Positions 1 through 13,118 of a stretch of DNA of 22,685 nt are shown piece after piece. The translations under genes were made by a program, and so were the position numbers. The stretch lies in IMG/VR virus record IMGVR_UViG_2778260997_000018; one strand, 5' to 3'. Within the stretch, counting starts at the first letter, position 1. Every line of letters starts with the position of its first letter. The notes below the pieces were generated by a model. It saw only the letters and a program-made list of their open reading frames with translations, searched no databases and was not told the DNA's origin. The DNA is from a virus (taxonomy: Duplodnaviria; Heunggongvirae; Uroviricota; Caudoviricetes).

Positions 1-1053
1 TTACGGGGTAATGCCAACCGCTGTCGCCACTTTGTCGCCACTTGGCAGCGTTGCCAGAGGATTGAAACGGAGCGCCGTTTCCAGATGATCCGGTGCCAGA
101 TGTGCGTAACGCATAGTCATTTTTATATCGTGGTGTCCGAGAATTTTTTGTAAGGCCAGAATGTTTCCACCCGACATCATGAAGTGCGCCGCAAACGTAT
201 GGCGCAGAACGTGTGTGAGTTGACCGCGAGGGAGCACGATAGACGTTTTTTCCATCACGGATAAAAATTGAAAATAGCAGTCTGTGAAGAAATTGAACCC
301 ATCAAGCGCCATGATCTCTTCGTAAAGCTCTTTACTGATAGGGATGCTTCTGTTTTTCTTCCCCTTCGTTCTTACAAAGGTAATTCGGTATTTGGTCACC
401 TGTGAACGAGTAAGATTTACGGCTTCTCGCCAGCGTGCGCCTGTGCTTAAGCATATCTTAACTACCAGTGCCAGAATTGGGTCCTGACGTTTGCAATCAG
501 CCAGTAATTCAACAATCTGCTCATGGGTAAGCCATGCCATCTCTTTTTCTGCGATGGTGAATTTTCGCATGTTCTCCAGTGGGTTCGGATACGACCATTC
601 GCCCAGGCGGGATAGTTCGCTAAAAACACTACTTAGATAGCTTTGCTCCAGGTTAATGGTGACCGGGCTTGCTCCTTTCTTCCATTTCTCGCTGAAGTAG
701 ATCTCACCTGTCAGGCGTTTATCTCGATAGTGGGCAAACATTTTAGAGGTTAGATCAGTTGCAAGGGGATTGCCCAGAGCGTCAACCATCAGCAGCAATT
801 TGTCATAGACATGCTGCCCAGCAGTCAGTGATTTACCATGTAGTTTGAACCATAGCTCAACCACGTCTTTCAGTGTTCGACGATCCACTGATTCACCTAG
901 CCAGGGCTTTGCTTCGGTTTCTTCCATCGTGTGACGCTCAAAAGCCAGTGCTTCGCCTTTGGTGGCGAATTGTTTACGCACACGACGCCCACTACGTCCG
1001 GCGGGGTAACATTCGCAAAGCCATTTTCCTGTGGTGAGTTTTCGTACAGCCAT
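1..1053 (-). CDS. int: Tyrosine integrase (P2/186-type site-specific recombinase)
   Basis: Minus-strand ORF with stop TAA (reverse complement of 1-3). C-terminal region carries the tyrosine-recombinase signature (LRHTFAAHF ... GHHDIKMTMRYAHL, i.e. R/H-x-x-R/Y catalytic residues). ORF-track start at 1131 trimmed to the ATG at 1053 (MAVRKLTTGKW...), which resembles P2-family Int N-termini. Position at the prophage end, next to the repressor, fits. Confidence 0.9.
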   Translation of the reverse strand: MAVRKLTTGKWLCECYPAGRSGRRVRKQFATKGEALAFERHTMEETEAKPWLGESVDRRTLKDVVELWFKLHGKSLTAGQHVYDKLLLMVDALGNPLATDLTSKMFAHYRDKRLTGEIYFSEKWKKGASPVTINLEQSYLSSVFSELSRLGEWSYPNPLENMRKFTIAEKEMAWLTHEQIVELLADCKRQDPILALVVKICLSTGARWREAVNLTRSQVTKYRITFVRTKGKKNRSIPISKELYEEIMALDGFNFFTDCYFQFLSVMEKTSIVLPRGQLTHVLRHTFAAHFMMSGGNILALQKILGHHDIKMTMRYAHLAPDHLETALRFNPLATLPSGDKVATAVGITP

Positions 1054-1241
1054 AAAAAATGCCCTCCAATAGAGAGCATTTTTACTGTATGTATAACCAG
1101 TGTCAATGTATGAAATCCTGCGACCATACATCTCACTGAAGCCATAATGAAGTAGGCTATTCTTTTTGCTATGTGATCATGTAACTTTTGCGGTTAACCT
1201 GTGGCTCATTTTTATTTTAGGCGCAGATATAAAAGCAAAAG

Positions 1242-1433
1242 TTATCGTGAGTTTTTAGTACAGATTTTTTTGGATTTACTAATAGTTCCATCATTGCAAA
1301 CGAATTTGCCATCAGAGGTACAGTGAGAAACACCTCCCTTTTTCCCTGAGCAGGGATAATTTCTAGCATAGGTAGCTAGTGGGTTTAATAACAAAGAACA
1401 TGACAAAACCACAAAAAATACCTTACCAAGCAT
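1242..1433 (-). CDS. Small secreted cysteine-rich protein (63 aa; signal peptide plus ~40 aa mature peptide with 4 Cys), possible lysogenic-conversion moron
   Basis: ATG at 1433-1431 preceded by a strong SD (reverse complement of 1434-1446 reads GGGAGGAAATT-ATG). N-terminus [23 protein letters not shown] looks like a Sec signal with an A-x-A cleavage site; the mature part has C-x-...-C spacing. Lies 15 bp downstream of the cI stop on the same strand, in an AT-rich stretch. Confidence 0.55.
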
Positions 1434-1448
1434 AATTTCCTCCCGGTA

Positions 1449-2018
1449 CTATTTAACATACTTGACTGTTAAACTTATAATTTTACCAATTATTTCAATG
1501 TCTTCTATCTTACATTCGAAGGCTCTGTTTCCACCCTCGACGAAGATTCTTCCACCGGGTAAACGAGTAATGTCACGGATCGTTATTTCGCCATCAATAC
1601 TTATTACCCATTTACCATCACGTATATCATCAAATTCCTTATCACAAATAAATTCAGAATTATTATCTGTGATTACAAAAAGATTCTTGAATGCCGACGG
1701 TAGAAATTCTCTATCGAAAATATAAAAACCGTCTTCACACAAGGCCCCATCAGATAATACATATTTAGCAACTTCCATAGTATTTGTATTACCTGAAGTT
1801 TGCTTTGAACCATGCCCGGTTGTGAGCCAATTAAGCGAGGTGCCTGTTTCAAGGGCGCACTGGATTACCCATTCTGCTGGGAATGAGTCACGCATGTAGC
1901 GTGTGGCGAGTGTACTTTTAGAGATTCCTAAATGATCGCACAACGCCTGTCGAGTCTTGAATCCATAAGCTTCTACCATGCGCTCTATGGCGCCTCGTCC
2001 GCCTTTCTCCAAATTCAT
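1449..2018 (-). CDS. cI: Immunity repressor, coliphage 186 CI-type (N-terminal HTH, C-terminal oligomerisation domain)
   Basis: About 190 aa protein, N-terminal HTH-like segment (GFKTRQALCDHLGISKSTLATRYMR). Sits between int and the divergent apl/cII genes, as in 186. ATG at 2018 has GGAG 5 nt upstream; the ORF track starts at an in-frame GTG at 2024. Confidence 0.8.
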   Translation of the reverse strand: MNLEKGGRGAIERMVEAYGFKTRQALCDHLGISKSTLATRYMRDSFPAEWVIQCALETGTSLNWLTTGHGSKQTSGNTNTMEVAKYVLSDGALCEDGFYIFDREFLPSAFKNLFVITDNNSEFICDKEFDDIRDGKWVISIDGEITIRDITRLPGGRIFVEGGNRAFECKIEDIEIIGKIISLTVKYVK

Positions 2019-2028
2019 GGTCACTCCA

Positions 2029-2083
2029 AGTGAACTTTTATCTTGACGATTTCACTGTGCGATCGTATGTTTATAGTGTTCAC
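2029..2083 (+). promoter_or_regulatory. Candidate early lytic promoter (pR-like) with flanking inverted-repeat operator half-sites
   Basis: -35 TTGACG (2043-2048), 17 nt spacer, -10 TATGTT (2066-2071). Inverted repeat AGTGAA (2029-2034) / TTCACT (2051-2056) brackets the -35; a further GTTCAC copy at 2078-2083. Sits in the cI-apl intergenic region where 186/P2 phages have face-to-face lytic and lysogenic promoters. Confidence 0.35.
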
Positions 2084-2143
2084 AAAATACAAACGATCCG
2101 TATTCGTCCTGATTAATCATCATTAAACGAGGAATGTTGCATC

Positions 2144-2365
2144 ATGAGACCTAACATTTCAATCACTCTTACCACGCCTCATGTGACTATTGAACGCTAT
2201 AGCGAGCTGACAGGGCTATCCATCGATACCATCAATGACATGTTGGCTGATGGACGCCTTATCCGTCACCGTCTGCGCAAAGATAAAAAACGCGAAAAAG
2301 TGATGATCAACATAGCAGCAATGACCGTTGATGCGCTTTCAGAATGCAATCTAAACCTTAATTAG
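2144..2365 (+). CDS. Apl/Cox-like small DNA-binding protein (excision/early repressor) - positional assignment
   Basis: First gene of the rightward early operon, 73 aa, basic ([15 protein letters not shown]); GAGGAA 9 nt upstream of the ATG. Position matches apl (186) / cox (P2); sequence identity not verified. Confidence 0.5.
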
Positions 2366-3948: not shown

Positions 3949-4802
3949 GCACCATCCTGAAATGGACGGGAAATAAAACCGCCATTATGTCCGAACTGAA
4001 AAAACACCTTCCTGCTGGCCCGCGACTGGTTGAACCTTTCGCGGGTTCCTGTGCTGTGATGATGGAGACGGATTACCCCAGCTATCTGGTTGCGGATATT
4101 AATCCTGATTTAATCAACCTCTATAAAAAGGTTGCTGCTGATTGCGAGGCGTTTATATCTCGTGCCAGAGCTTTATTTGAGGAAGCAAACAGGGAGTTGG
4201 CTTATTACAACATAAGACAGGAGTTTAATTACTCCACTGAAATTACTGATTTCATGAAAGCGGTATATTTCCTGTATCTCAATCGTCATGGTTACCGTGG
4301 GTTATGTCGTTATAACAAGAGCGGGCATTTCAACATTCCATACGGTAATTATAAAAATCCGTATTTCCCTGAAAAAGAAATTCGCGCATTTGCAGAGAAA
4401 GCCCAGCAAGCAACGTTTATCTGCGCCAGCTTTGATGAAACGCTGGCGATGTTGAAGGCGGGGGATGTGGTGTATTGCGATCCGCCTTATGACGGTACGT
4501 TTTCCGGCTATCACGCTGACGGCTTTACTGAAGATGACCAGTATCACCTGGCATCCGTTCTTGAACATCGGTCATCAGAAGGACATCCGGTCATTGTTTC
4601 TAACAGTGACACATCCCTGATCCGTTCGCTGTATCGCAATTTTACTCACCACTATATCAAGGTAAAACGCAGCATCGGCGTAGCAGCTGGTGAGAGTAAA
4701 TCAGCAACAGAAATCATTGCTGTTTCCGGGCCGCGCTGCTGGGTGGGATTTGATTATTCGCGTGGCGTGGATAGTTCTGCCGTGTACGGAGTACGTGCAT
4801 GA
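3945..4802 (+). CDS. dam: DNA adenine methyltransferase (Dam-like, D12 class N6-adenine MTase)
   Basis: Motif I-like FAGSCAV (SAM-binding), catalytic DPPY (CDPPYDG) and a Dam-like N-terminus (ILKWTGNK). ATG 3945 with GGAGG (3935-3939); ORF-track start 3885 is an upstream extension. Stop overlaps the A start (ATGA). Confidence 0.85.
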
Positions 4803-7213
4803 GCCATGCCGATATGAGCAACTGCTGCGGCTTTAAAGAGGCTGCCGCATCGTTCTCATGGAACAGCCCGAAAAAGGCCATTAACCCTTATCTGGACCCG
4901 GCGGAAGTTGCGCCGGTTTCTGCGTTTTCAAACCTGATCACTCTGTACGCTGCCGATAACGAGCAGGAACAACTGCGCCGCGAGGCACTGAGTGATCAGG
5001 TCTGGGAGCGTTATTTCTTTAATGAATCCCGTGATCCTGTCCAACGCGAAATAGAGCAGGATAAGCTCATTAGCCGGGCAAAGTTGGCGCATGAGCAGCA
5101 GCGTTTTAACCCGGACATGGTCATTCTGGCAGACGTCAGCGCCCAGCCCTCCCATATCAGCAAGCCGCTGATGCAACGTATTGAATACTTCAGCAGCCTG
5201 GGCAGGCCAAAGGCTTATTCCCGCTATTTACGTGAGACGATTAAGCCATGTCTGGAACGACTGGAGCATGTACGCGACAGCCAGCTATCTGCATCTTTTC
5301 GTTTTATGGCAAGCCATGTAGGGCTGGACGGCCTGCTGATTCTGCCTGAAATGAGTCAGGATCAGGTGAAACGCCTGTCTACCCTTGTCGCTGCGCATAT
5401 GAGCATGTGCCTTGATGCAGCTTGTGGTGATTTGTATGCCACCGATGACGTTAAGCCAGAAGAAATCCGCAAGACATGGGAAAAGGTGGCAGCGGAAACC
5501 CTGCGTCTGGATGTCATCCCGCCTGTGTTTGAGCAACTCCGTCGGAAAAGAAACCGCCGTAAACCCGTGCCCTATGAACTCATTCCGGGTTCGCTGGCGC
5601 GTATGTTGTGCGCCGACTGGTGGTACCGGAAATTATGGAAAATGCGTTGCGAATGGCGGGAAGAGCAGTTGCGTGCTGTCTGCCTGGTCAGCAAAAAAGC
5701 ATCTCCCTATGTCAGCTATGAAGCCGTGATGCATAAACGTGAGCAGCGCCGCAAGTCACTGGAGTTTTTCCGTTCTCATGAACTGGTGAACGAAGAGGGC
5801 GACACGCTGGATATGGAAGACGTGGTAAACGCCAGCAGCAGCAACCCGGCGCACCGCCGCAATGAGATGATGGCCTGTGTTAAAGGTCTGGAGCTTATCG
5901 CGGAAATGCGCGGTGACTGCGCCGTTTTCTACACCATTACCTGTCCGTCACGTTTCCATTCCACGCTCAATAACGGCAGACCAAACCCAACCTGGACAAA
6001 TGCGACGGTAAGACAAAGCAGCGATTATCTGGTCGGCATGTTTGCTGCATTTCGTAAGGCGATGCACAAAGCCGGGTTGCGCTGGTATGGCGTGCGGGTG
6101 GCTGAGCCGCATCATGACGGTACAGTTCACTGGCACCTGTTGTGTTTCATGCGCAAAAAAGACCGCCGCGCCATTACTGCATTGTTGCGTAAGTTTGCCA
6201 TCCGTGAAGACCGCGAGGAACTGGGTAATAACACTGGTCCACGCTTTAAATCTGAGCTGATAAACCCGCGCAAAGGAACGCCGACAAGCTACATCGCGAA
6301 ATACATCAGTAAGAACATTGACGGGCGTGGTCTGGCTGGCGAGATCAGCAAGGAAACGGGTAAATCCATGCGTGATAACGCTGAATACGTTAATGCCTGG
6401 GCGTCTCTGCATCGTGTTCAGCAATTCCGCTTCTTTGGTATTCCGGGACGTCAGGCTTACCGTGAACTTCGCTTGCTGGCTGGTCAGGCGGCAAGGCAAC
6501 AGGGTGACAAAAAAGCAGGTGCGCCGGTACTGGATAACCCGCGTCTTGATGCCATTCTGGCTGCTGCTGATGCTGGTTGTTTTGCCACCTACATCATGAA
6601 GCAGGGCGGCGTACTGGTTCCCCGCAAATATCACCTCATCAGAACCGCTTATGAAATCAACGAAGAGCCAACCGCCTATGGCGATCACGGTATTCGTATT
6701 TATGGCATCTGGTCACCCATTGCAGAGGGCAAGATCTGCACTCATGCAGTGAAGTGGAAAATGGTTCGTAAGGCCGTTGACGTTCAGGAGGCGGCAGCCG
6801 ACCAGGGCGCTTGCGCCCCTTGGACTCGTGGCAATAACTGTCCCCTTGCTGAAAATTTGAACCAACAAGGGAAAGACAAATCAGCTGATGGGGATACCAG
6901 GACGGACATTACCCGCATGGATGACAAGGCGTTGCACGATTACCTGCACAGTATGAGCAAAAAAGAGCGCCGGGAACTAGCTGCAAGGTTACGCCTGGTG
7001 AAACCGAAACGGCGTAAAGACTACAAACAGCGAATTACAGACCATCAGCGACAGCAGCTCGTCTATGAACTGAAGTCCAGAGGATTTGATGGCAGCGAGA
7101 AAGAGGTCGATTTACTCCTTCGCGGCGGCAGTATTCCGTCAGGAGCAGGCCTGCGTATCTTCTATCGGAACCAGCGTTTGCAGGAAGATGATAAGTGGCG
7201 AAACCTGTATTAA
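4799..7213 (+). CDS. A: Replication initiation endonuclease (P2 gpA / 186 A family, rolling-circle initiator)
   Basis: 804 aa ORF in the position of P2 A; contains a conserved HxH-type block (VHWHLLCF) and the Tyr-rich region [13 protein letters not shown] typical of the gpA nicking-joining active site. Start not certain (in-frame ATGs at 4799 and 4814). Confidence 0.8.
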
Positions 7214-7366: not shown

Positions 7367-7555
7367 ATGCAGGACTATTTTTTGGAGTCTTTGAAGCTCC
7401 AGCGCATTGATTTTTTTCTTAAACTTGTAGCGGCTAGTGAGTGTAGTGATGAAGAGAAGGGGCTGGCTTTGCAGTGGGTTTCTGAACTGACAGATGAACT
7501 CATGGCAAAAATCAGAACCCACGAATACAACCGCTCAATGGATGTCATCAGCTGA
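7367..7555 (+). CDS. Hypothetical small protein (62 aa), first gene of the SOS-regulated operon
   Basis: ATG 7367 with AGGAGG (7357-7362) 4 nt upstream; the ORF-track start 7265 would include the LexA box itself, so the shorter start is preferred. Confidence 0.45.
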   Translation: MQDYFLESLKLQRIDFFLKLVAASECSDEEKGLALQWVSELTDELMAKIRTHEYNRSMDVIS

Positions 7556-7565
7556 GGTGACTTTT

Positions 7566-7799
7566 ATGCGCATTGAAATAATGATCGATAAAGAGCAGAA
7601 GATTAGCCAGTCTACCCTGGACGCCCTTGAATCCGAGCTTTACCGCAATCTGCGCCCCCTGTATCCAAAAACGGTAATTCGCATCCGCAAAGGTAGCTCT
7701 AACGGTGTGGAACTGACCGGACTGCAACTGGACGAAGAAAGGAAGCAAGTGATGAAAATTATGCAGAAGGTGTGGGAAGACGACAGCTGGCTGCATTAA
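7566..7799 (+). CDS. DinI-like protein (possible Tum-type SOS-inducible antirepressor)
   Basis: 77 aa beginning MRIEIMIDK...LESELYRNL...IRIRKGSSNGVELTGLQLDEERKQVMKIMQKVWEDDSW, closely resembling E. coli DinI (MRIEVTIAK...WESADDWF). GAGG 7 nt upstream of the ATG. Downstream of the LexA box; located at the right genome end like tum in 186. Confidence 0.75.
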   Translation: MRIEIMIDKEQKISQSTLDALESELYRNLRPLYPKTVIRIRKGSSNGVELTGLQLDEERKQVMKIMQKVWEDDSWLH

Positions 7800-7921: not shown

Positions 7922-8641
7922 ATGACAACTATTAACAAGCATGGGTTATCTAGAACAATTCCTGAACCTGTAAAACTGGAGGTAAGGCAGCGCTGTGGCT
8001 TCGGTTGCGTTGTTTGTGCTTCTCCCATTGTTGAGTATGAGCATGTAATTCCCACATACGCTGATGCAAAGGAGCACTCACCAAATGCAATAGCACTACT
8101 TTGTCCTACGTGCCATGCGAAAGTAACGAAACGTCTTTACTCTAAAGAGAAAATAATTAAAGCAATGGAATCTCCTGCAGCCTTACAAAAAGGGAATGTG
8201 GCCGATATATTGGACTTTTCTGATAGGCATCCAACAATAATATTTGGTGGTGCGACGTTTGAATCCTGTACTGTACCAATAATGTTTCAAAATGAGCCAT
8301 TGTTAACCATTGAAAAAGAAAATAATGCTTTTCTTATTTCGGGTAAATTTTACGATAGTCAAGGTATTGTTAATCTTGAATTAATTAAGAATGAGTGGGT
8401 TTGTAGTGCAAGGCATTGGGATGTTCAGGTTGTCGGTCCTAGAATAACTATTATAGAAAAAAGGAAAGGTCCTCGTTTAATTATTAAAGTTGATGCGCCT
8501 GAAAGATTGATTGTGGAAAGATTAGATATGTTGGTTAAGGGGACTCGGATTGTAGGAGACGAACACAAGCTAAGAGTAGGTCCACATCAATTTCACAACT
8601 GTGGAGTTTCAAATTGCAATATTGGTTTCTGCTTTGGCTAA
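7922..8641 (+). CDS. HNH-nuclease domain protein with ~170 aa C-terminal domain of unknown function (cargo)
   Basis: N-terminus has the complete HNH signature: CGFGCVVC (C-x2-C) ... EYEHVIP (E-x-H-[IV]-x-P) ... NAIALLCPTCH (N-x-x-x-L-C-x2-C-H). AT-rich codon usage unlike the phage backbone. Confidence 0.7.
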   Translation: MTTINKHGLSRTIPEPVKLEVRQRCGFGCVVCASPIVEYEHVIPTYADAKEHSPNAIALLCPTCHAKVTKRLYSKEKIIKAMESPAALQKGNVADILDFSDRHPTIIFGGATFESCTVPIMFQNEPLLTIEKENNAFLISGKFYDSQGIVNLELIKNEWVCSARHWDVQVVGPRITIIEKRKGPRLIIKVDAPERLIVERLDMLVKGTRIVGDEHKLRVGPHQFHNCGVSNCNIGFCFG

Positions 8642-8754
8642 CTGGAGGTTGGAAAAAGACCATTTCCTATAAGCTGAGTATTTCGTACATTTTTGCCAAC
8701 GCATGTCTATGCCGCATGAAATCGCATGATCGTTTGAGGATCGTTTTTGCTGAT

Positions 8755-8780
8755 GCCCGCCAGAGCTGGCGGGCTTTTGC
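8755..8780 (+). terminator. Rho-independent terminator candidate
   Basis: Stem GCCCGCC (8755-8761) / GGCGGGC (8768-8774), 6 nt loop, then TTTT (8775-8778). Confidence 0.5.
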
Positions 8781-8823
8781 TTGTGTCATGCAGGTGCATG
8801 AAAACCACTACACAAAGCGGGCA

Positions 8824-8842
8824 GGCGTGGCGGGGATACGAG
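8824..8842. other. Candidate cos (cohesive end) site of the prophage
   Basis: GGCGTGGCGGGGATACGAG: the first 13 nt match my recollection of the 19-nt cohesive end of 186/P2-type phages (GGCG[T/A]GGCGGGGAAAGCA...). The position between the right-end accessory genes and the portal gene is where cos lies in P2/186 prophages. Confidence 0.35.
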
Positions 8843-8897
8843 CGCGCGCTATGTGGTATAGGCCTTAATTTAGTATGATTCAAGAGTGTCGGGATCT

Positions 8898-8926
8898 TTG
8901 CGCTGATCAGTCCTAAGTTATATGAT
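8898..8926 (+). promoter_or_regulatory. Candidate sigma70 promoter for the GHKL/STAS operon
   Basis: -35 TTGCGC (8898-8903), 17 nt spacer, -10 TATGAT (8921-8926), about 30 bp upstream of ATG 8956. Confidence 0.35.
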
Positions 8927-8955
8927 AAGAAAAATGCATAAAAAAGGTTCGGTTC

Positions 8956-9930
8956 ATGGGGTTAGGATTAAAAGACGCTATTGTGCATACCGCTGCGTTT
9001 CATCAAAAGGAAACTAATGAATTGCAATTGCCAAACAACCATTGGCATCCTGGTTTTATCACTGTCTTAGCAGCTTACGTGAATCATCACAAAATTACCG
9101 AAGATAACTGCGTTTTGTCATGCCCTGACTATATGCGAGCTATCAATTTACATGGTGCTTTATGGGGCGAGGATCAGTATCAACAGGAACGTGTAAATGT
9201 TGGAAGAAATTACAGTTTGGTTACAGCATTAACCAATGTTGAAGCTGTTGACGTTGCCACTGGTAGTATTAACAGTTGTGTAAGGCAGTTAACATTCCCT
9301 GATCGTGATCCGAGAGATTATCCCAAGGGACTTACAGATCTAACTCATGTTATAGGTGAGCTTCACGATAACGTTTGGTCGCATGGAAAATCAACGGGTT
9401 TTTCTTTTGCACAACGTTCGGCTGTACCCCACACACAAAGAAAAGAGCACTATTTAGAATTTTCTTTGGCGGACTGTGGGTTAGGATTTCTCCGAGAATT
9501 GCGGCGAGCTGGTATACCCGGAATTGAGACTCACCAGGATGCGATCGCATGGTGTATTCAAGAGGGACATTCATCTAAGCATGCTGATTTGCAGGATGAT
9601 TGGGCACAGCAACTTCCCCAGGATTTTATTGGGGGTAGTATGTTTGGTCACGGGGTTTCGGTCAAAGAAAAAGATAATAATCATCAAGGGCTTGGGTTAT
9701 ATCACTTGATGAAATTGATAAAAACATATAATGGGGAATTGCAACTGGCTTCAGGAAATGTATGCTTAGAAGCAATAGGTGATGAAGTGAGCTATACTGA
9801 ATTACGTACTAAATGGCCGGGTGTAGCAATTTCTTGCCGTTTTAAGATTCATGAACTGGCAGTCGATAAAGATAGCGAAGAAAATGACCCTCAGCTTATG
9901 GAAATAATGCGGGCGTTAGGAGGAGAGTAA
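8956..9930 (+). CDS. GHKL-superfamily ATPase/kinase-like protein (HATPase_c-like C-terminal domain; ~130 aa N-terminal domain of unknown function)
   Basis: Bergerat-fold motifs in order and correct spacing: N-box GELHDNVWSHG (aa 134-144; 9355-9387), G1 box ADCGLGF (aa 172-178; D-x-G-x-G), G2 box GLGLY (aa 245-249). Resembles RsbW/SpoIIAB-type serine kinases. AT-rich; stop overlaps the next start. Confidence 0.7.
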   Translation: MGLGLKDAIVHTAAFHQKETNELQLPNNHWHPGFITVLAAYVNHHKITEDNCVLSCPDYMRAINLHGALWGEDQYQQERVNVGRNYSLVTALTNVEAVDVATGSINSCVRQLTFPDRDPRDYPKGLTDLTHVIGELHDNVWSHGKSTGFSFAQRSAVPHTQRKEHYLEFSLADCGLGFLRELRRAGIPGIETHQDAIAWCIQEGHSSKHADLQDDWAQQLPQDFIGGSMFGHGVSVKEKDNNHQGLGLYHLMKLIKTYNGELQLASGNVCLEAIGDEVSYTELRTKWPGVAISCRFKIHELAVDKDSEENDPQLMEIMRALGGE

Positions 9931-10268
9931 TGAACAAAATCGCATACAAGTTACCCGAGGGTGACCTGGCTTCGCGCAATCAGGCTATCCCCCAACGACA
10001 CAAGATTGAAGGGTTCATTAAAGAAGGGTATACCGTAGATTTGGACCTGAGCGGTGTTTATTCAATTTCAGAATCATACTCTGATGAAATCTTTGGTGTT
10101 TTGGTAGTGAAATTCGGTGTAACCAAAGTTTTGAGTCAGGTTAAGGTTCGCAATGCATCCCCTTCAATTTTAAAAAGTATTGCAAAAGTGATCCAACGTC
10201 GTAGCAATGAAGTAGCATCAAAAAAGGTTCATTCCGTTGGATTTGATGGTTTATACGCCGTTTGTTAA
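9930..10268 (+). CDS. STAS-like small protein (anti-sigma-factor-antagonist-like / DUF4325-like), partner of the GHKL protein
   Basis: 112 aa. Segment VDLDLSGVYSISESYSDEIFGVL resembles the STAS/SpoIIAA core (LDLSGV-x-F-x-DSSG). ATG overlaps the upstream stop (TAATG) with GGAGGA 7 nt upstream, indicating translational coupling. Confidence 0.6.
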   Translation: MNKIAYKLPEGDLASRNQAIPQRHKIEGFIKEGYTVDLDLSGVYSISESYSDEIFGVLVVKFGVTKVLSQVKVRNASPSILKSIAKVIQRRSNEVASKKVHSVGFDGLYAVC

Positions 10269-10314: not shown

Positions 10315-11352
10315 TTATTCCTGAGCACCTAAAACATAGTCATCAAAACGTATTACTTCTGCACCCACCCATTCGTTTAGTTCATGTAGTCGCTTCTGTA
10401 GTGGCATCAGTTCATTGCGGACAAATACACGACTCGCTTTCTCTACATCCCCAAACCCCCCAACATTATTCGGCATAATCCCCATCATCTGTGGCGGAAC
10501 ACGATGCGCGGCCATCATGTCATCACGACTCACGTTCTTGATGTTCAGAAATTCATCTTTCGCCGCGACTTCTGATAACGGGATAATCTGAAGTCCGTCC
10601 TTTTTGCCGTTAGGCGAGTACATAAACAGATTGCGGAAGTTACCTGGTCCTTTGGCGCTTTTCATTGCATTGCGGAGGTTGTTTACATCCTCCTGGTTTT
10701 GTGCGGCGTCGGTCATGTACATGATGAAGCCTGCATGACTGCCGTTAATGTAATACTTCCGGCGGAACAGCGTGGCGGACTCGTTGAGCAGGGCTGACGG
10801 AATGGCAGAAAGATAACCGGGCAGGCCGTAGATCTCCTGGTTGATGTCCGGTTCCATCAGATGAAAAATGCTGCCTTTCGTGAACTGATACGGCTGGGTT
10901 GTCATACCGTATTGCACAAACCAGTAGGTATCCAGGTCTAACCCGCGTCGGGTGTATTTTGCCAGAGCAGGCTCAAGGGCGATAACTTCACCGAAGCGGT
11001 TCGTGCGTTTCTCTAGGTAGGCGTTACCAAATACCAGATAGTCCTGCACAAAACGTGAAAAAGCCTGCTGGCTGAGCAGCGGGTGAGGGATGTAGGTACT
11101 GGTCAGAATGTTGCATTTCACCGCAATTGGTGAGCTGTGATGCACGGCGGCGCGGAAGGTTCGTGCCAGTCCGTCAAAGCTGACGGGCGGCTCATACCAG
11201 CGATCCATCTGTACGCATTCCACATAGTCCAGCAGTTCACGGCGGTCCAGAACAGGAACGGGATCGCCAAAGCTGAATGCTTCGGCTGAAGTTTGGCTTT
11301 TATGCTTGAGCTGATTCGTCGCCGCAGCGCGGTTTTTCTTACTCTTTCCCAT
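10315..11352 (-). CDS. Q: Portal protein (P2 gpQ family)
   Basis: 345 aa; length, sequence character and position (leftmost late gene, convergent with the cargo, upstream partner of the terminase) match P2 Q. ATG at 11352 overlaps the P stop (TGATG); the ORF track starts one codon earlier at TTG. Confidence 0.9.
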   Translation of the reverse strand: MGKSKKNRAAATNQLKHKSQTSAEAFSFGDPVPVLDRRELLDYVECVQMDRWYEPPVSFDGLARTFRAAVHHSSPIAVKCNILTSTYIPHPLLSQQAFSRFVQDYLVFGNAYLEKRTNRFGEVIALEPALAKYTRRGLDLDTYWFVQYGMTTQPYQFTKGSIFHLMEPDINQEIYGLPGYLSAIPSALLNESATLFRRKYYINGSHAGFIMYMTDAAQNQEDVNNLRNAMKSAKGPGNFRNLFMYSPNGKKDGLQIIPLSEVAAKDEFLNIKNVSRDDMMAAHRVPPQMMGIMPNNVGGFGDVEKASRVFVRNELMPLQKRLHELNEWVGAEVIRFDDYVLGAQE

Positions 11353-13118
11353 CAAAAAATCTCCACAATATTGCTGGTATTGGCGGACTCGCCCTGCAGC
11401 GGTTCATTAAACAGTGCGTGCATTGTTGCCCAGGCCAGATCGGCGTGGCTGGCTTCTTCGCTGCGGCTGGCTTCATAGGTCGGGCGGTTGCCGCTGGCAG
11501 TGGTGGCGCGACGGATTGCCATAAAGGACTGCGCTATGTCGGTGTGCCCGGCGTCAAACTCCAGGCGGCGGTGACTGATAATGTCGTAGGCCTTGAGTAC
11601 CAGAGCGTTTTTAACGTTGGGGTTGTAGACAAACTCCCGGACGGCAGGAAAAAACGCTTTCACGTTCTCGTAAACCCCGTGACCAACGCCGGTTGAGTCG
11701 ATGCCGATATAGGTCACGTTGTACTGTTCGGTCAGTTTTTTGATGGCGTCAGCCTGGGCGCGAAAGTCCATCCCGCGCCACTGGTGACGCTCAAGAATGC
11801 GGAACTTGCCGCCCGGCACGGCTGGCGGTGCCACCACCACGCATCCGGCACTGTCGCCGTTCTGCGTACCTTTCGCCGGGTCATAACCGATCCACACTTC
11901 GCGCCAGCCAAACGGGCGCAGTGCCAGTGCATGAAAGTCGGTCCAGACTTCCCAGCTGTCCACCATGCACGCCTGCAGCTCGCTGAGCGGGAACACGGAC
12001 GCGAGATCGTCCACGAACTCGCACATCAGCAGGTTCTGGTATTCGTCCGGGCTGTACTCCATGCGTAGCTGGTCGAGGTCGAACAGGTTACAGCCGCCGC
12101 GCACCGCATCTTCCACGGTGACTATCTGGCGGTATTGCCCGTCTGCGCACAGCAGGCCGGGGGCCAGATTGCTGTGGGACAGGTCGATGTCCACCTTATC
12201 GGCTTTGTTGCGCCCACGGTTGAACAGCGCACCGGACCAGAACGGATAAGCACTGTGTGTCAGACTGGATGGCGTGGAAAAATAGGTCTGTCGCCATTTT
12301 TTGTGAATAGCCATACCGGAAGCCACTTTGCGCAGCTCCTGGAATTTCGGTATCCAGAAATATTCATCCAGATACAGGTTGCCGTGGTAACTCTGGGCCG
12401 TGCGGGCATTGGTGCCGAGGAAGTAAAGCGTGGCCCCGTTGGGAAGCACCATCGGATCGCCTTTCAGTTCCACATCCACTTCTTTGGCGAAGTCGATGAT
12501 GTACTGCTTAAAGACGTGAGCCTGTGCCTTACTGGCAGAAAGGAAAATCTGGTTACGTCCGGTAAGCAGGGCGTCAATCAGGGCTTCACGGGCAAAGTAA
12601 AAGGTCGCGCCGATCTGGCGTGACTTCAGCAGGTTGCGGATGCGGTTGGTTTTTCCGGCTTCCCACCAGTGGCGCTGGTAGTTGAACATGGAGGAATGGA
12701 AGATTTCTTCCAGTTTCTCTATCTGTTCATCGGTGAAAACATTCTTTTCCGGCTGACGGCGCGGGCCTTTGTTGCGGTTGGCGACGTTAGGGTTTAAGTC
12801 GGCTTCGTTGCCGCCATTGTTAAACTTGCCGATCCGCGCGTGGCGCTCCGACTGGCGCGCCAGCAGGTCAATTTCTTTGAAATCTTTCCCTTCTTTGTGC
12901 TCCTTCATAATGAGCTGGCAGTAACGTGCGGCGGTGGTGAGCTGCATCTGATCCAGCGGCCCATAGTCACCCCACTTGTCGCGTTTCTTCCAGCTGTGAA
13001 CGGTTGCAACTTTCTCGCCCAGCATTTCAGCAATGCGGGCTACGCGGTATCCCTGAAAGTACAGCAGCATGGCCTGCCGACGGGGATCGAGATCTGCGGG
13101 TGTCAGTGTGGTGTTCAT
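11352..13118 (-). CDS. P: Terminase large subunit (P2 gpP family ATPase/nuclease)
   Basis: 588 aa (P2 P about 590 aa), start ATG at 13118. Contains a Walker A-like GATFYF and acidic nuclease motifs. Divergent from the O-N-M-L operon as in P2. Confidence 0.9.
   Translation of the reverse strand: MNTTLTPADLDPRRQAMLLYFQGYRVARIAEMLGEKVATVHSWKKRDKWGDYGPLDQMQLTTAARYCQLIMKEHKEGKDFKEIDLLARQSERHARIGKFNNGGNEADLNPNVANRNKGPRRQPEKNVFTDEQIEKLEEIFHSSMFNYQRHWWEAGKTNRIRNLLKSRQIGATFYFAREALIDALLTGRNQIFLSASKAQAHVFKQYIIDFAKEVDVELKGDPMVLPNGATLYFLGTNARTAQSYHGNLYLDEYFWIPKFQELRKVASGMAIHKKWRQTYFSTPSSLTHSAYPFWSGALFNRGRNKADKVDIDLSHSNLAPGLLCADGQYRQIVTVEDAVRGGCNLFDLDQLRMEYSPDEYQNLLMCEFVDDLASVFPLSELQACMVDSWEVWTDFHALALRPFGWREVWIGYDPAKGTQNGDSAGCVVVAPPAVPGGKFRILERHQWRGMDFRAQADAIKKLTEQYNVTYIGIDSTGVGHGVYENVKAFFPAVREFVYNPNVKNALVLKAYDIISHRRLEFDAGHTDIAQSFMAIRRATTASGNRPTYEASRSEEASHADLAWATMHALFNEPLQGESANTSNIVEIF

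What the first reader, a model, noticed from the sequence alone, without database searches (positions are those of the whole stretch)
1242..1448. Secreted Cys-rich mini-protein embedded in the lysogenic cI-int operon
A 63-aa ORF with a very strong SD (GGGAGGAAATT-ATG), a convincing Sec signal peptide and a ~40-aa mature peptide containing four cysteines sits 15 bp after the cI stop on the same strand, upstream of int. Its AT-rich composition contrasts with its neighbours. Genes in this position are expressed in the lysogen, so this is a candidate lysogenic-conversion factor (periplasmic or secreted peptide; exclusion, toxin or bacteriocin-like, or envelope modifier).
Basis: partly seen in the sequence, partly recalled or inferred. 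Interest (0 to 1): 0.55.

Follow-up and report, generated by a model that had tools for sequence, protein, structure and literature searches.

The report
Prophage-borne YdcA-family exported mini-protein
A real, conserved 63-codon gene sits just behind the repressor gene of a P2/186-like E. coli prophage and encodes an exported, cysteine-rich mini-protein; it belongs to the already catalogued YdcA family, whose function is still unknown, so it is a well-placed but largely ordinary prophage passenger gene.

Summary
On the minus strand, window 1433..1242 encodes 63 aa. A GGGAGG Shine-Dalgarno precedes it, and the ATG lies 15 nt after the CI stop and 188 nt upstream of int. The product has a Sec-type signal peptide (invariant Ala at -1) and a 40-aa, pI 9.7 mature peptide with four invariant cysteines.

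It is not new. It passes NCBIfam NF007463 (YdcA family), matches phrog_6000, and is annotated "YdcA family protein" in RefSeq. It occurs in 595 of 5,426 complete E. coli genomes and is a paralog of K-12 YdcA.

It is under strong purifying selection (11 synonymous versus 2 non-synonymous differences between alleles). The same cI-ydcA-int order recurs in divergent Yersinia and Haemophilus (HP2, unannotated) P2-like phages. P2 and 186 have nothing in this slot, and close relatives carry other cargo there.

New functional leads:
- The domain is fused to three unrelated exported nuclease folds.
- A paralog sits in enterobacterial T6SS clusters.
- It rides on 4-kb mobilisable plasmids.

Best reading: a lysogen-expressed periplasmic adaptor-type passenger gene. 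A toxin or bacteriocin role is unsupported. Function and expression remain untested.

The parts
1242..1433 (-). YdcA-family gene: 63 codons plus the TAA stop at 1244-1242
   Evidence: ORF list. NCBIfam NF007463, 114.6 bits against a cut-off of 93. phrog_6000, E = 3e-34. RefSeq annotates the identical sequence as 'YdcA family protein' WP_001513672.1.
1365..1433 (-). Sec-type signal peptide, residues 1-23; predicted signal peptidase I cut after T-Y-A23
   Evidence: Hydropathy profile. Ala at -1 is invariant while the rest of the leader varies across 29 homologues. Inferred; no SignalP run and no experiment.
1245..1364 (-). Mature 40-aa peptide RNYPC..KNSR carrying the YdcA core [12 protein letters not shown]-x5[17 protein letters not shown]; four invariant Cys; pI 9.7
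   Evidence: Alignments A1, A2 and A5. Charge and pI. AlphaFold2 model with pLDDT 81-89 over residues 31-60, showing a small beta-hairpin.
1434..1448 (-). 15-nt cI-ydcA spacer containing the Shine-Dalgarno GGGAGG (1444-1439)
   Evidence: Sequence. Conserved in the 92%-identical allele of ATCC 8739, apart from one spacer base.
1449..2024 (-). 186-type CI repressor gene, immediately upstream on the same strand
   Evidence: Pfam Phage_CI_repr (E = 2.8e-33) and Phage_CI_C (E = 2.7e-27).
1055..1083 (-). 13-bp hairpin AAAAAUGCUCUCU-AUU-GGAGGGCAUUUUU followed by U, ending 1 nt before the int AUG. It buries the int Shine-Dalgarno and looks like an intrinsic terminator or attenuator that would close the cI-ydcA transcript.
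   Evidence: RNA fold: -20.8 kcal/mol, z = -6.7 against 200 shuffles. Its function is inferred.
1078..1106 (-). Sigma-70-like promoter match TTGACA-17-AAAAAT upstream of int; its -10 hexamer forms the 5' arm of the hairpin
   Evidence: Consensus scan, 10 of 12 positions. This is a consensus match only.
1..1053 (-). P2/186-type tyrosine integrase gene, downstream on the same strand
   Evidence: Pfam Int_N and Phage_integrase. RefSeq start in the identical prophage.

Best explanation
This is a prophage-borne paralog of the host periplasmic protein YdcA. It is carried as a one-gene passenger (a 'moron') in the slot between the CI repressor gene and int of a P2/186-like E. coli prophage inserted next to rcdA.

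Proposed mechanism, step by step:
1. It is transcribed with cI from the lysogenic promoter. There is a 15-nt gap, no terminator and a strong ribosome-binding site of its own. (Inferred.)
2. The transcript is largely closed by the hairpin in front of int. (Inferred.)
3. The 63-aa precursor is exported by Sec and cut after Ala23. (Inferred from sequence and family conservation.)
4. The 40-aa, strongly cationic product folds in the periplasm into a small beta-hairpin held by two disulfides. (Inferred by analogy with Legionella Dis2.)
5. There it acts as a binding or adaptor module sitting close to the outer membrane, not as an enzyme or toxin. It adds to, or substitutes for, the activity of chromosomal YdcA and so changes the lysogen's envelope properties. 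The only phenotype reported for ydcA is sensitivity to organic-acid stress when it is deleted.

Identity and export carry high confidence. The biochemical role is a reasoned guess.
For: Family identity:
- NCBIfam NF007463 above the curated cut-off, phrog_6000 and PF27300.
- 79% identity of the mature core to K-12 YdcA, whose sequence was verified by translation.

A real, selected gene:
- Present in 595 of 5,426 complete E. coli genomes and in at least 534 IMG/VR matches.
- Intact in 85 of 85 copies, with 11 synonymous versus 2 non-synonymous changes between alleles; both amino-acid changes fall at the end of the leader.

Lysogeny-operon placement recurs in divergent P2-like phages:
- Yersinia (cI 38% identical, int 48% identical) and Haemophilus HP2 (cI 32%, int 49%), where the ATG overlaps the cI stop.
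- The slot is empty in 186 and P2 and holds other cargo in phages with the same int.

Export:
- Variable hydrophobic leaders with an invariant -1 Ala, followed by an invariant 4-Cys core.

Periplasmic, disulfide-bonded, close to the outer membrane:
- The top PDB match by both fold (Foldseek probability 0.80, 38% identity) and profile (E = 2e-4) is Legionella Dis2.
- Dis2 has two similar lobes pinned by five disulfides, lies next to the outer membrane, and contacts DotK, DotC and DotD (PMC8486379, PMC12716638).

Adaptor or binding role:
- The domain sits directly after the signal peptide in fusions to three unrelated nuclease folds: SNase, Endonuclease_NS and PLD-like.
- It also occurs in tandem-repeat forms.
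- A 134-aa paralog is embedded in T6SS clusters next to TssJ and TssE.

Stress link:
- Deleting ydcA in E. coli W causes sensitivity to 3-hydroxypropionate, and ydcA is reported to be acid-induced via YdcI (PMC7642389).
Against: - There are no expression data for the prophage copy. Co-transcription with cI, export, cleavage site and disulfides are all inferred.
- The AlphaFold2 model is only moderately confident (pLDDT 77.5, pTM 0.47).
- The stress phenotype comes from one paper, on the chromosomal gene, in one strain.
- Nuclease fusions and carriage on 4-kb mobilisable plasmids next to traD fit a DNA-related role at least as well as an envelope role.
- Eight of the 595 E. coli matches are partial. 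The one inspected is an IS5 insertion, so the gene is dispensable for the prophage.
Confidence: 0.55

Rival explanations
1. Periplasmic DNA-binding or entry-exclusion factor. On this reading the cationic YdcA domain binds nucleic acid outside the cytoplasm. Made together with CI, it would hinder foreign DNA from crossing the envelope (superinfecting phage, conjugative or transforming DNA), as repressor-linked exclusion genes do in other temperate phages.
For: - The domain is recurrently fused, directly after the signal peptide, to three unrelated exported nuclease families: SNase (P0112, P0225), Endonuclease_NS (P0167, P0175, P0196, L034) and PLD-like (P0182).
- The mature peptide carries a net charge of about +7, with invariant Lys and Ser positions.
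- The gene sits in the immunity operon in at least three P2-like lineages.
- It is one of only 5-6 genes on 4-kb MOBQ Acinetobacter plasmids, next to traD.
- Its probable solved relative is a subunit of a type IVB secretion system. These systems are evolutionarily related to I-type conjugation systems (stated in the abstract of PMC9302130, listed).
Against: - The mature domain is almost unchanged between phage, plasmid and chromosomal copies and across three proteobacterial classes, under strong purifying selection. That is not the pattern expected for a factor in an arms race.
- No match to any PADLOC defence model.
- Contractile-tailed phages deliver DNA through a tube, so periplasmic exposure is doubtful (general knowledge).
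- Accessory domains on exported nucleases can equally be anchoring modules.
- Dis2 contacts lipoproteins, not DNA.
Confidence: 0.2
2. Neutral hitch-hiker. The gene is a recently captured copy of a host gene that travels with this cI allele by linkage and gives neither the phage nor the lysogen a measurable benefit.
For: - The homology break with relatives carrying the same int lies at about window 1113, and the cI alleles differ as well. The ORF therefore moves together with the immunity cassette.
- It can be lost to an IS insertion.
- P2 and 186 manage without it.
Against: - The ratio of non-synonymous to synonymous change is about 0.05 between alleles that differ at 26% of synonymous sites.
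- The same slot is occupied independently in Yersinia and Haemophilus phages whose cI and int are only 32-49% identical.
- The gene is retained intact in the decayed prophage of E. coli B derivatives.
Confidence: 0.1
3. Secreted toxin or bacteriocin-like peptide.
For: It is small, cationic, Cys-rich and exported.
Against: - The leader is a Sec type, not a double-glycine leader.
- No immunity, processing or export gene is adjacent.
- Family members are single-copy chromosomal genes with no partner, for example K-12 ydcA between rydC and hokB.
- Deleting ydcA sensitises the cell rather than relieving it.
- Sec export alone delivers the protein only to the periplasm (general knowledge).
Confidence: 0.04
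4. Lipoprotein anchored through Cys12 (VVLS-C resembles a lipobox).
For: The leader contains V-L-S-C at residues 9-12.
Against: - Cys12 is not conserved. Most homologues have no Cys in the leader.
- The hydrophobic stretch before it is only 6-7 residues and the Cys lies very close to the N-terminus.
- The hydrophobic core continues after it (SLLL), as expected if it is simply part of the signal peptide's hydrophobic core.
- The invariant feature is the A-x-A-like site at residues 21-23.
Confidence: 0.03

Closest known systems
E. coli K-12 YdcA (b1419), NCBIfam PRK10040 / YdcA family, Pfam PF27300
   Same: Same architecture: a Sec leader followed by one 34-37-aa four-Cys core, PCSGxKGG[VI][17 protein letters not shown]. 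The core is 79% identical. The window protein passes the family's curated NCBIfam cut-off. Both have unknown function.
   Different: The window protein matches the NF007463 sub-model rather than the sub-model that probably represents K-12 YdcA (NF007462: 68.5 bits against a cut-off of 118). Its leader is unrelated. It is encoded in a prophage lysogeny operon, not between rydC and hokB. It is more basic and has a short KNSR tail.
[quoted passage not shown]
   Same: It is the best PDB match by both structure and profile. It shares the motif C-S-K-x-GG-[IV]-x-x-C-x(4,5)-G-[KR]-[FL]-VCN-[DN]-G-x-x-S. It is exported, disulfide-stapled and sits under the outer membrane.
Repressor-linked or lysogen-expressed passenger genes of temperate phages (lambda rexAB, bor and lom; P2 old, tin and fun; T4 Spackle as a periplasmic exclusion protein). 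This comparison is from general knowledge.
   Same: It is an accessory gene not needed for the phage life cycle. It is placed where it would be transcribed in the lysogen and is swapped for other cargo in close relatives.
   Different: No sequence or profile similarity to any of them, and no match to any PADLOC defence model. No phenotype is known. Unlike typical exclusion genes, it has a highly conserved chromosomal paralog.

Membership tests
YdcA family (NCBIfam NF007463 / PRK10040; Pfam PF27300) | Profile score above the curated cut-off | tested here: met
   NF007463: 114.6 bits against a cut-off of 93, E = 1.3e-33, covering residues 5-63 and profile positions 1-58 of 58. The identical protein carries PF27300.1 in the precomputed annotation. 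The local Pfam copy lacks that model.
YdcA family (NCBIfam NF007463 / PRK10040; Pfam PF27300) | Four invariant Cys within the core P-C-S-x2-K-G-G...C...F-x-C-x-D-G-x2-S-x-S-K-x2-C | tested here: met
   Invariant columns P27, C28, S29, K32, G33, G34, C38, F44, C46, D48, G49, S52, S54, K55 and C58 in 27-29 sequences. The same core is seen in 60 distinct domains from 80 species.
YdcA family (NCBIfam NF007463 / PRK10040; Pfam PF27300) | N-terminal Sec signal peptide and periplasmic location | tested here: inconclusive
   A hydrophobic leader and an invariant -1 Ala fit the pattern. K-12 YdcA is described as predicted periplasmic (PMC11340327). No signal-peptide predictor and no experiment were available.
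Legionella Dis2-like subunits of the type IV secretion system outer-membrane cap | Significant sequence or fold similarity to Dis2 | tested here: inconclusive
Legionella Dis2-like subunits of the type IV secretion system outer-membrane cap | Two-lobe architecture and association with a Dot/Icm-type secretion system | tested here: not met
   The window protein has a single domain. Its neighbours are cI and int, and the rest of the window is a P2-like phage.
Known anti-phage defence or superinfection-exclusion proteins | Homology to a catalogued defence or exclusion protein | tested here: not met
   PADLOC gave no hit. The matching PHROG family, phrog_6000, has unknown function.
Known anti-phage defence or superinfection-exclusion proteins | Expression in the lysogen and an exclusion phenotype | not testable with these tools
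   Only position is available: 15 nt after cI on the same strand, with no terminator between them.
Peptide bacteriocins and microcins | Dedicated leader (double-glycine type) with adjacent immunity and export genes | tested here: not met
   The leader is Sec-type. The flanking genes are cI and int only.
Bacterial lipoproteins | Conserved lipobox Cys at the end of the leader | tested here: not met
   Cys12 is not conserved among homologues and lies inside the hydrophobic core.

The most novel reading that the evidence does not exclude
The YdcA domain may be a previously unrecognised periplasmic or extracellular nucleic-acid-binding (or translocon-binding) module. Mobile elements would then deploy free-standing copies as a one-gene barrier to incoming DNA: prophages from the repressor operon, and small mobilisable plasmids from next to traD. 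That would be a new class of entry or superinfection-exclusion factor. It would also assign a function to E. coli YdcA and to the Legionella secretion-system subunit Dis2.
Probability: 0.15. Interest if true: 0.7.

Novelty: already known. Interest (0 to 1): 0.35.

Why it matters
The gene is present in about one in nine complete E. coli genomes, including laboratory and industrial strains (B/BL21-type derivatives, ATCC 8739, HS). It is probably made whenever the prophage repressor is made, yet neither it nor its chromosomal paralog YdcA has a known function.

This analysis yields concrete, testable leads for a conserved E. coli gene of unknown function:
- recurrent fusion to three exported nuclease folds;
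- a paralog in T6SS clusters;
- carriage on minimal plasmids;
- a probable relationship to Legionella Dis2, which the literature treats as Legionella-specific with no structural relatives;
- conserved placement behind cI in Escherichia, Yersinia and Haemophilus P2-like phages.

The gene itself is not a new kind of system.

Tried and rejected
- Pfam (local copy): no hit for the ORF, because PF27300 is newer than the copy.
- PADLOC: nothing.
- Megablast against phage isolates: only int matches, so no cultured phage record carries this exact gene.
- Foldseek against viral structures (BFVD): nothing significant.
- Foldseek against AFDB50: library unavailable.
- Rfam on window 900-2300: only a chance miRNA match, E = 0.42.
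- IMG/VR scan: the top 80 loci were all near-identical copies of this prophage, so they confirmed intactness but added no diversity.
- Neighbour Pfam census of 140 flanking ORFs in 70 species: heterogeneous, with no single conserved partner apart from the T6SS-cluster subgroup and the K-12 cybB/trg locus.
- Literature: 'YdcA' mostly returns the B. subtilis rhomboid protease or the unrelated ydcA gene of the gonococcal genetic island. No paper was found on the prophage copy.
- Lipoprotein, bacteriocin and 'AT-rich island' readings were considered and rejected, as set out under the rival explanations.
It was re-run with alignment A2.

Full report
**1. What is in the sequence**

The ORF lies on the minus strand, window 1433..1242. 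It encodes 63 aa: [63 protein letters not shown].

- Read on the minus strand, the cI stop (TAG, 1451-1449) is followed by TACCGGGAGGAAATT and then ATG.
- The upstream gene is a 186-type CI repressor (Pfam Phage_CI_repr and Phage_CI_C).
- Downstream there is a 188-nt spacer, then a P2/186-type integrase whose annotated start is at 1053.
- Across the divergent promoter region lie apl/cox-like and cII genes. The rest of the window is a P2-like prophage backbone.
- In identical copies the element is inserted next to rcdA.

**2. Is it a real gene?**

Yes.

- The 329-bp region occurs in 595 of 5,426 complete E. coli genomes, nearly always one copy per genome. It is annotated 'YdcA family protein' or 'hypothetical protein', next to 'phage repressor protein CI'.
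- IMG/VR holds at least 534 matches.
- In 85 of 85 full-length copies fetched the frame is intact, with seven alleles.
- Against the allele found in ATCC 8739 and B strains there are 13 nucleotide differences: 11 synonymous (26% of synonymous sites) and 2 non-synonymous (1.4% of non-synonymous sites). The binomial P is 4e-6.
- Both amino-acid changes (A20T, R24K) flank the predicted cleavage site. The mature core is unchanged.
- The Shine-Dalgarno sequence is conserved between alleles.
- Rare losses exist. In strain 730V1 an IS5-family element truncates the ORF.

**3. What family is it?**

- It scores 114.6 bits on NCBIfam NF007463 (PRK10040.1-2, an equivalog model with a cut-off of 93). It scores E = 3e-34 on phrog_6000, a family of unknown function.
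- The database copy of the identical protein carries PF27300, a Pfam model newer than the local library.
- The archetype is E. coli K-12 YdcA (b1419). I translated it from the MG1655 record, and its core is 79% identical.
- An alignment of 27-29 members shows unrelated hydrophobic leaders that end in an invariant Ala, followed by an almost invariant core: [12 protein letters not shown]-x(2-5)[17 protein letters not shown].
- That is the signature of a Sec-exported protein cut by signal peptidase I.
- The extra Cys12 in this leader is not conserved, so a lipoprotein reading is rejected.
- The mature product is 40 aa, 4.3 kDa, pI 9.7, with a net charge of about +7.
- The family spans alpha-, beta- and gamma-proteobacteria: 148 confirmed loci in one-genome-per-species data, and 468 clusters at 50% identity among 1.84 billion representatives.

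**4. Genomic position**

- Phage 186 has cI and int abutting. P2 has a 115-bp gap between C and int with no gene.
- Phages whose int is 97-98% identical to this one lose similarity at about window 1113 and carry other cargo between cI and int: a 350-aa hypothetical protein in Klebsiella phage 4LV2017, and a 558-aa 'chromosome segregation ATPase' in vB_EcoM-813R9. The slot is therefore a cargo site.
- A YdcA-family gene occupies the same slot in much more distant P2-like elements:
  - three Yersinia species (cI 38% identical, int 48% identical; gene order cI, 47-nt gap, ydcA, 97-nt gap, int);
  - Buttiauxella;
  - Haemophilus phage HP2/S2 (cI 32%, int 49%). There the 60-codon ORF is not annotated in the record, and its ATG overlaps the cI stop (TAATG).
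- In Atlantibacter it lies after int instead.
- Recurrent placement behind the repressor argues that expression in the lysogen is the point of the arrangement. That is still an inference.

**5. Transcription context (inferred)**

- There is no room for a terminator between cI and the ORF, and no minus-strand promoter match inside the 3' end of cI.
- Just before int there is a 13-bp hairpin followed by a U-run (window 1055-1083; -20.8 kcal/mol; z = -6.7). It contains the int Shine-Dalgarno sequence.
- A TTGACA-17-AAAAAT promoter match overlaps its 5' arm.
- This lies in the block shared with phages carrying the same int but other cargo.
- One reading follows. Maintenance transcripts cover cI and ydcA and are attenuated before int. 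Transcripts started at the int-proximal promoter would lack the 5' arm and leave the ribosome-binding site free. This was not tested.
- The low G+C of the ORF (35.9%) is shared by the C-terminal half of cI (33.3%). It marks the whole immunity cassette, not the ORF alone.

**6. What does the protein do?**

Direct knowledge is thin.

- K-12 YdcA is called a 57-aa predicted periplasmic protein of unknown function (PMC11340327).
- In E. coli W, deleting ydcA caused sensitivity to 300 mM 3-hydroxypropionate. The same authors cite acid induction via YdcI (PMC7642389).

Structure:
- An AlphaFold2 model built on the family alignment is moderately confident (pLDDT 77.5). It shows the leader helix and a small beta-hairpin.
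- The best solved match, by Foldseek (probability 0.80, 38% identity over 37 columns) and by profile search (E = 2e-4), is Legionella Dis2.
- Dis2 contains the motif twice: CCSKMGGINYCDSSAGRLVCNNGFYS, and GGV...SSGLVVCNDGYVSE.
- Dis2 is a non-essential 14-kDa subunit of the Dot/Icm outer-membrane cap. It has two similar lobes pinned by five disulfides, lies under the outer membrane, and contacts DotK, DotC and DotD (PMC8486379, PMC12716638).
- By analogy, the four invariant Cys of YdcA should form two disulfides in the periplasm.

**7. Context clues from the wider family**

- **Nuclease fusions.** Among the representatives longer than 150 aa, the YdcA domain sits right after the signal peptide and is joined by a low-complexity linker to three unrelated nuclease folds: SNase (P0112, P0225), Endonuclease_NS (P0167, P0175, P0196, and the Methylococcales locus L034) and a PLD-like domain (P0182). 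The only other recognised Pfam partner, a single VasL (T6SS) domain in P0123, is not an enzyme.
- **Tandem repeats.** Double and triple tandem forms exist (P0079, P0080), like Dis2.
- **T6SS clusters.** A 134-aa enterobacterial paralog lies inside T6SS clusters: TssF, TssG, TssJ, TssE, one ORF, YdcA-134, a T5orf172 protein, TssA/VasL.
- **Small plasmids.** The gene is one of five or six genes on 4-kb MOBQ Acinetobacter plasmids, next to traD. This probably explains the stray UniRef name 'Conjugal transfer protein'.
- **Other phages.** It also sits in the head-tail module of Moraxella phages.

Taken together, this is a self-sufficient, exported binding module. It is repeatedly attached to exported enzymes or to machines that span the cell envelope, and mobile elements repeatedly pick it up.

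**8. Weighing mechanisms**

- I favour a periplasmic adaptor or binding role close to the outer membrane, duplicating or boosting host YdcA. It accounts for Dis2, the T6SS context, the nuclease fusions (as tethers), the extreme sequence conservation, and the stress phenotype.
- The main rival is a DNA-binding or entry-exclusion role. It is suggested by the nuclease fusions, the positive charge, the immunity-operon position and the small plasmids. It is weakened by the lack of any arms-race signature and by the absence of similarity to known exclusion or defence proteins.
- A toxin or bacteriocin role and a lipoprotein role are not supported.
- Pure hitch-hiking is unlikely given the selection pattern and the independent occupancy of the same slot.

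**9. Novelty and verdict**

- The exact protein is in RefSeq under a family name and in PHROGs. As an object it is already known, and the finding is largely ordinary: a prophage passenger gene of unknown function.
- This analysis adds several leads for which I found no paper:
  - the conserved cI-linked placement across genera;
  - the unannotated HP2 gene;
  - the nuclease-fusion and T6SS associations;
  - the probable link to Dis2.
- These make YdcA function testable but do not establish it.

Noticed in passing
   Followed up: yes
window 1055-1106 (-): The int leader holds a 13-bp hairpin plus a U-run (-20.8 kcal/mol, z = -6.7) that buries the int Shine-Dalgarno sequence and ends 1 nt before the AUG. 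A TTGACA-17-AAAAAT promoter match overlaps it, with its -10 forming the 5' arm. This may be an attenuator or promoter switch that uncouples int from the cI transcript. It lies in the block shared at 97-98% identity with Klebsiella phages that carry other cargo.
   Followed up: partly
L009:1083-2902 (Klebsiella phage 4LV2017); L010:1771-3549 (Escherichia phage vB_EcoM-813R9): The cI-int slot is a cargo site. Phages with the same int carry a 350-aa hypothetical protein or a 558-aa 'chromosome segregation ATPase' there instead of ydcA. P2 and 186 have nothing in that slot.
   Followed up: partly
P0112, P0225, P0167, P0175, P0196, P0182; L034:4989-5936: The YdcA domain is fused, directly after the signal peptide, to three unrelated exported nuclease folds: SNase, Endonuclease_NS and PLD-like. 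Tandem double and triple YdcA-repeat proteins also exist (P0079, P0080).
   Followed up: partly
L047:623-8121 (Huaxiibacter chinensis); similar loci L039, L043, L045, L050, L053-L056, L063, L070, L080, L091: A 134-aa YdcA-domain paralog with a conserved C-terminal extension (...CAPLYMA.KPGYTHLPICSGNQY) is embedded in T6SS clusters between TssE and a T5orf172-domain protein, near TssJ and TssA/VasL.
   Followed up: partly
L175:728-904 and L176:640-816 (Acinetobacter MOBQ plasmids of 3.9-4.1 kb): A YdcA-family gene is one of only 5-6 genes on these minimal mobilisable plasmids, immediately after a small 'TraD' gene. This is the likely source of the misleading UniRef name 'Conjugal transfer protein' for the window protein's cluster.
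   Followed up: partly
PDB 7MUC/7MUD chain AN (Legionella Dis2, Lpg0823): The literature describes Dis2 as Legionella-specific with no structural relatives. Here it appears to be a tandem duplication of a YdcA-like domain (profile E = 2e-4 with the leader, 0.044 without; Foldseek probability 0.80).
   Followed up: partly
window 7922-10268 (+): Accessory cargo lies between the replication gene (4799-7213) and the portal gene (10315-11355, minus strand): a 239-aa HNH protein, a 324-aa protein with no family, and a 112-aa DUF4325 (STAS-like) protein with a weak DrmA-region match. This may be a defence cassette. A DinI-like gene lies at 7494-7799.
   Followed up: partly
window 1453-1481 (+): A strong sigma-70 consensus match (TTAACA-17-TATAAT, 11 of 12) points antisense into the 3' end of cI. 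The region is AT-rich, so it may be a chance match.
   Followed up: no
L173:1373-2655 (E. coli O19:H7 strain 730V1): An IS5-family (ISKpn26) insertion truncates the ydcA-like ORF while cI and int remain. This is one of only 8 partial matches among the 595 E. coli genomes.
   Followed up: yes
L003 (E. coli C43(DE3), B lineage): The prophage is decayed: cII and the replication gene are fused pseudogene remnants. The cI-ydcA-int block is nevertheless intact and carries the same ydcA allele as ATCC 8739.
   Followed up: no
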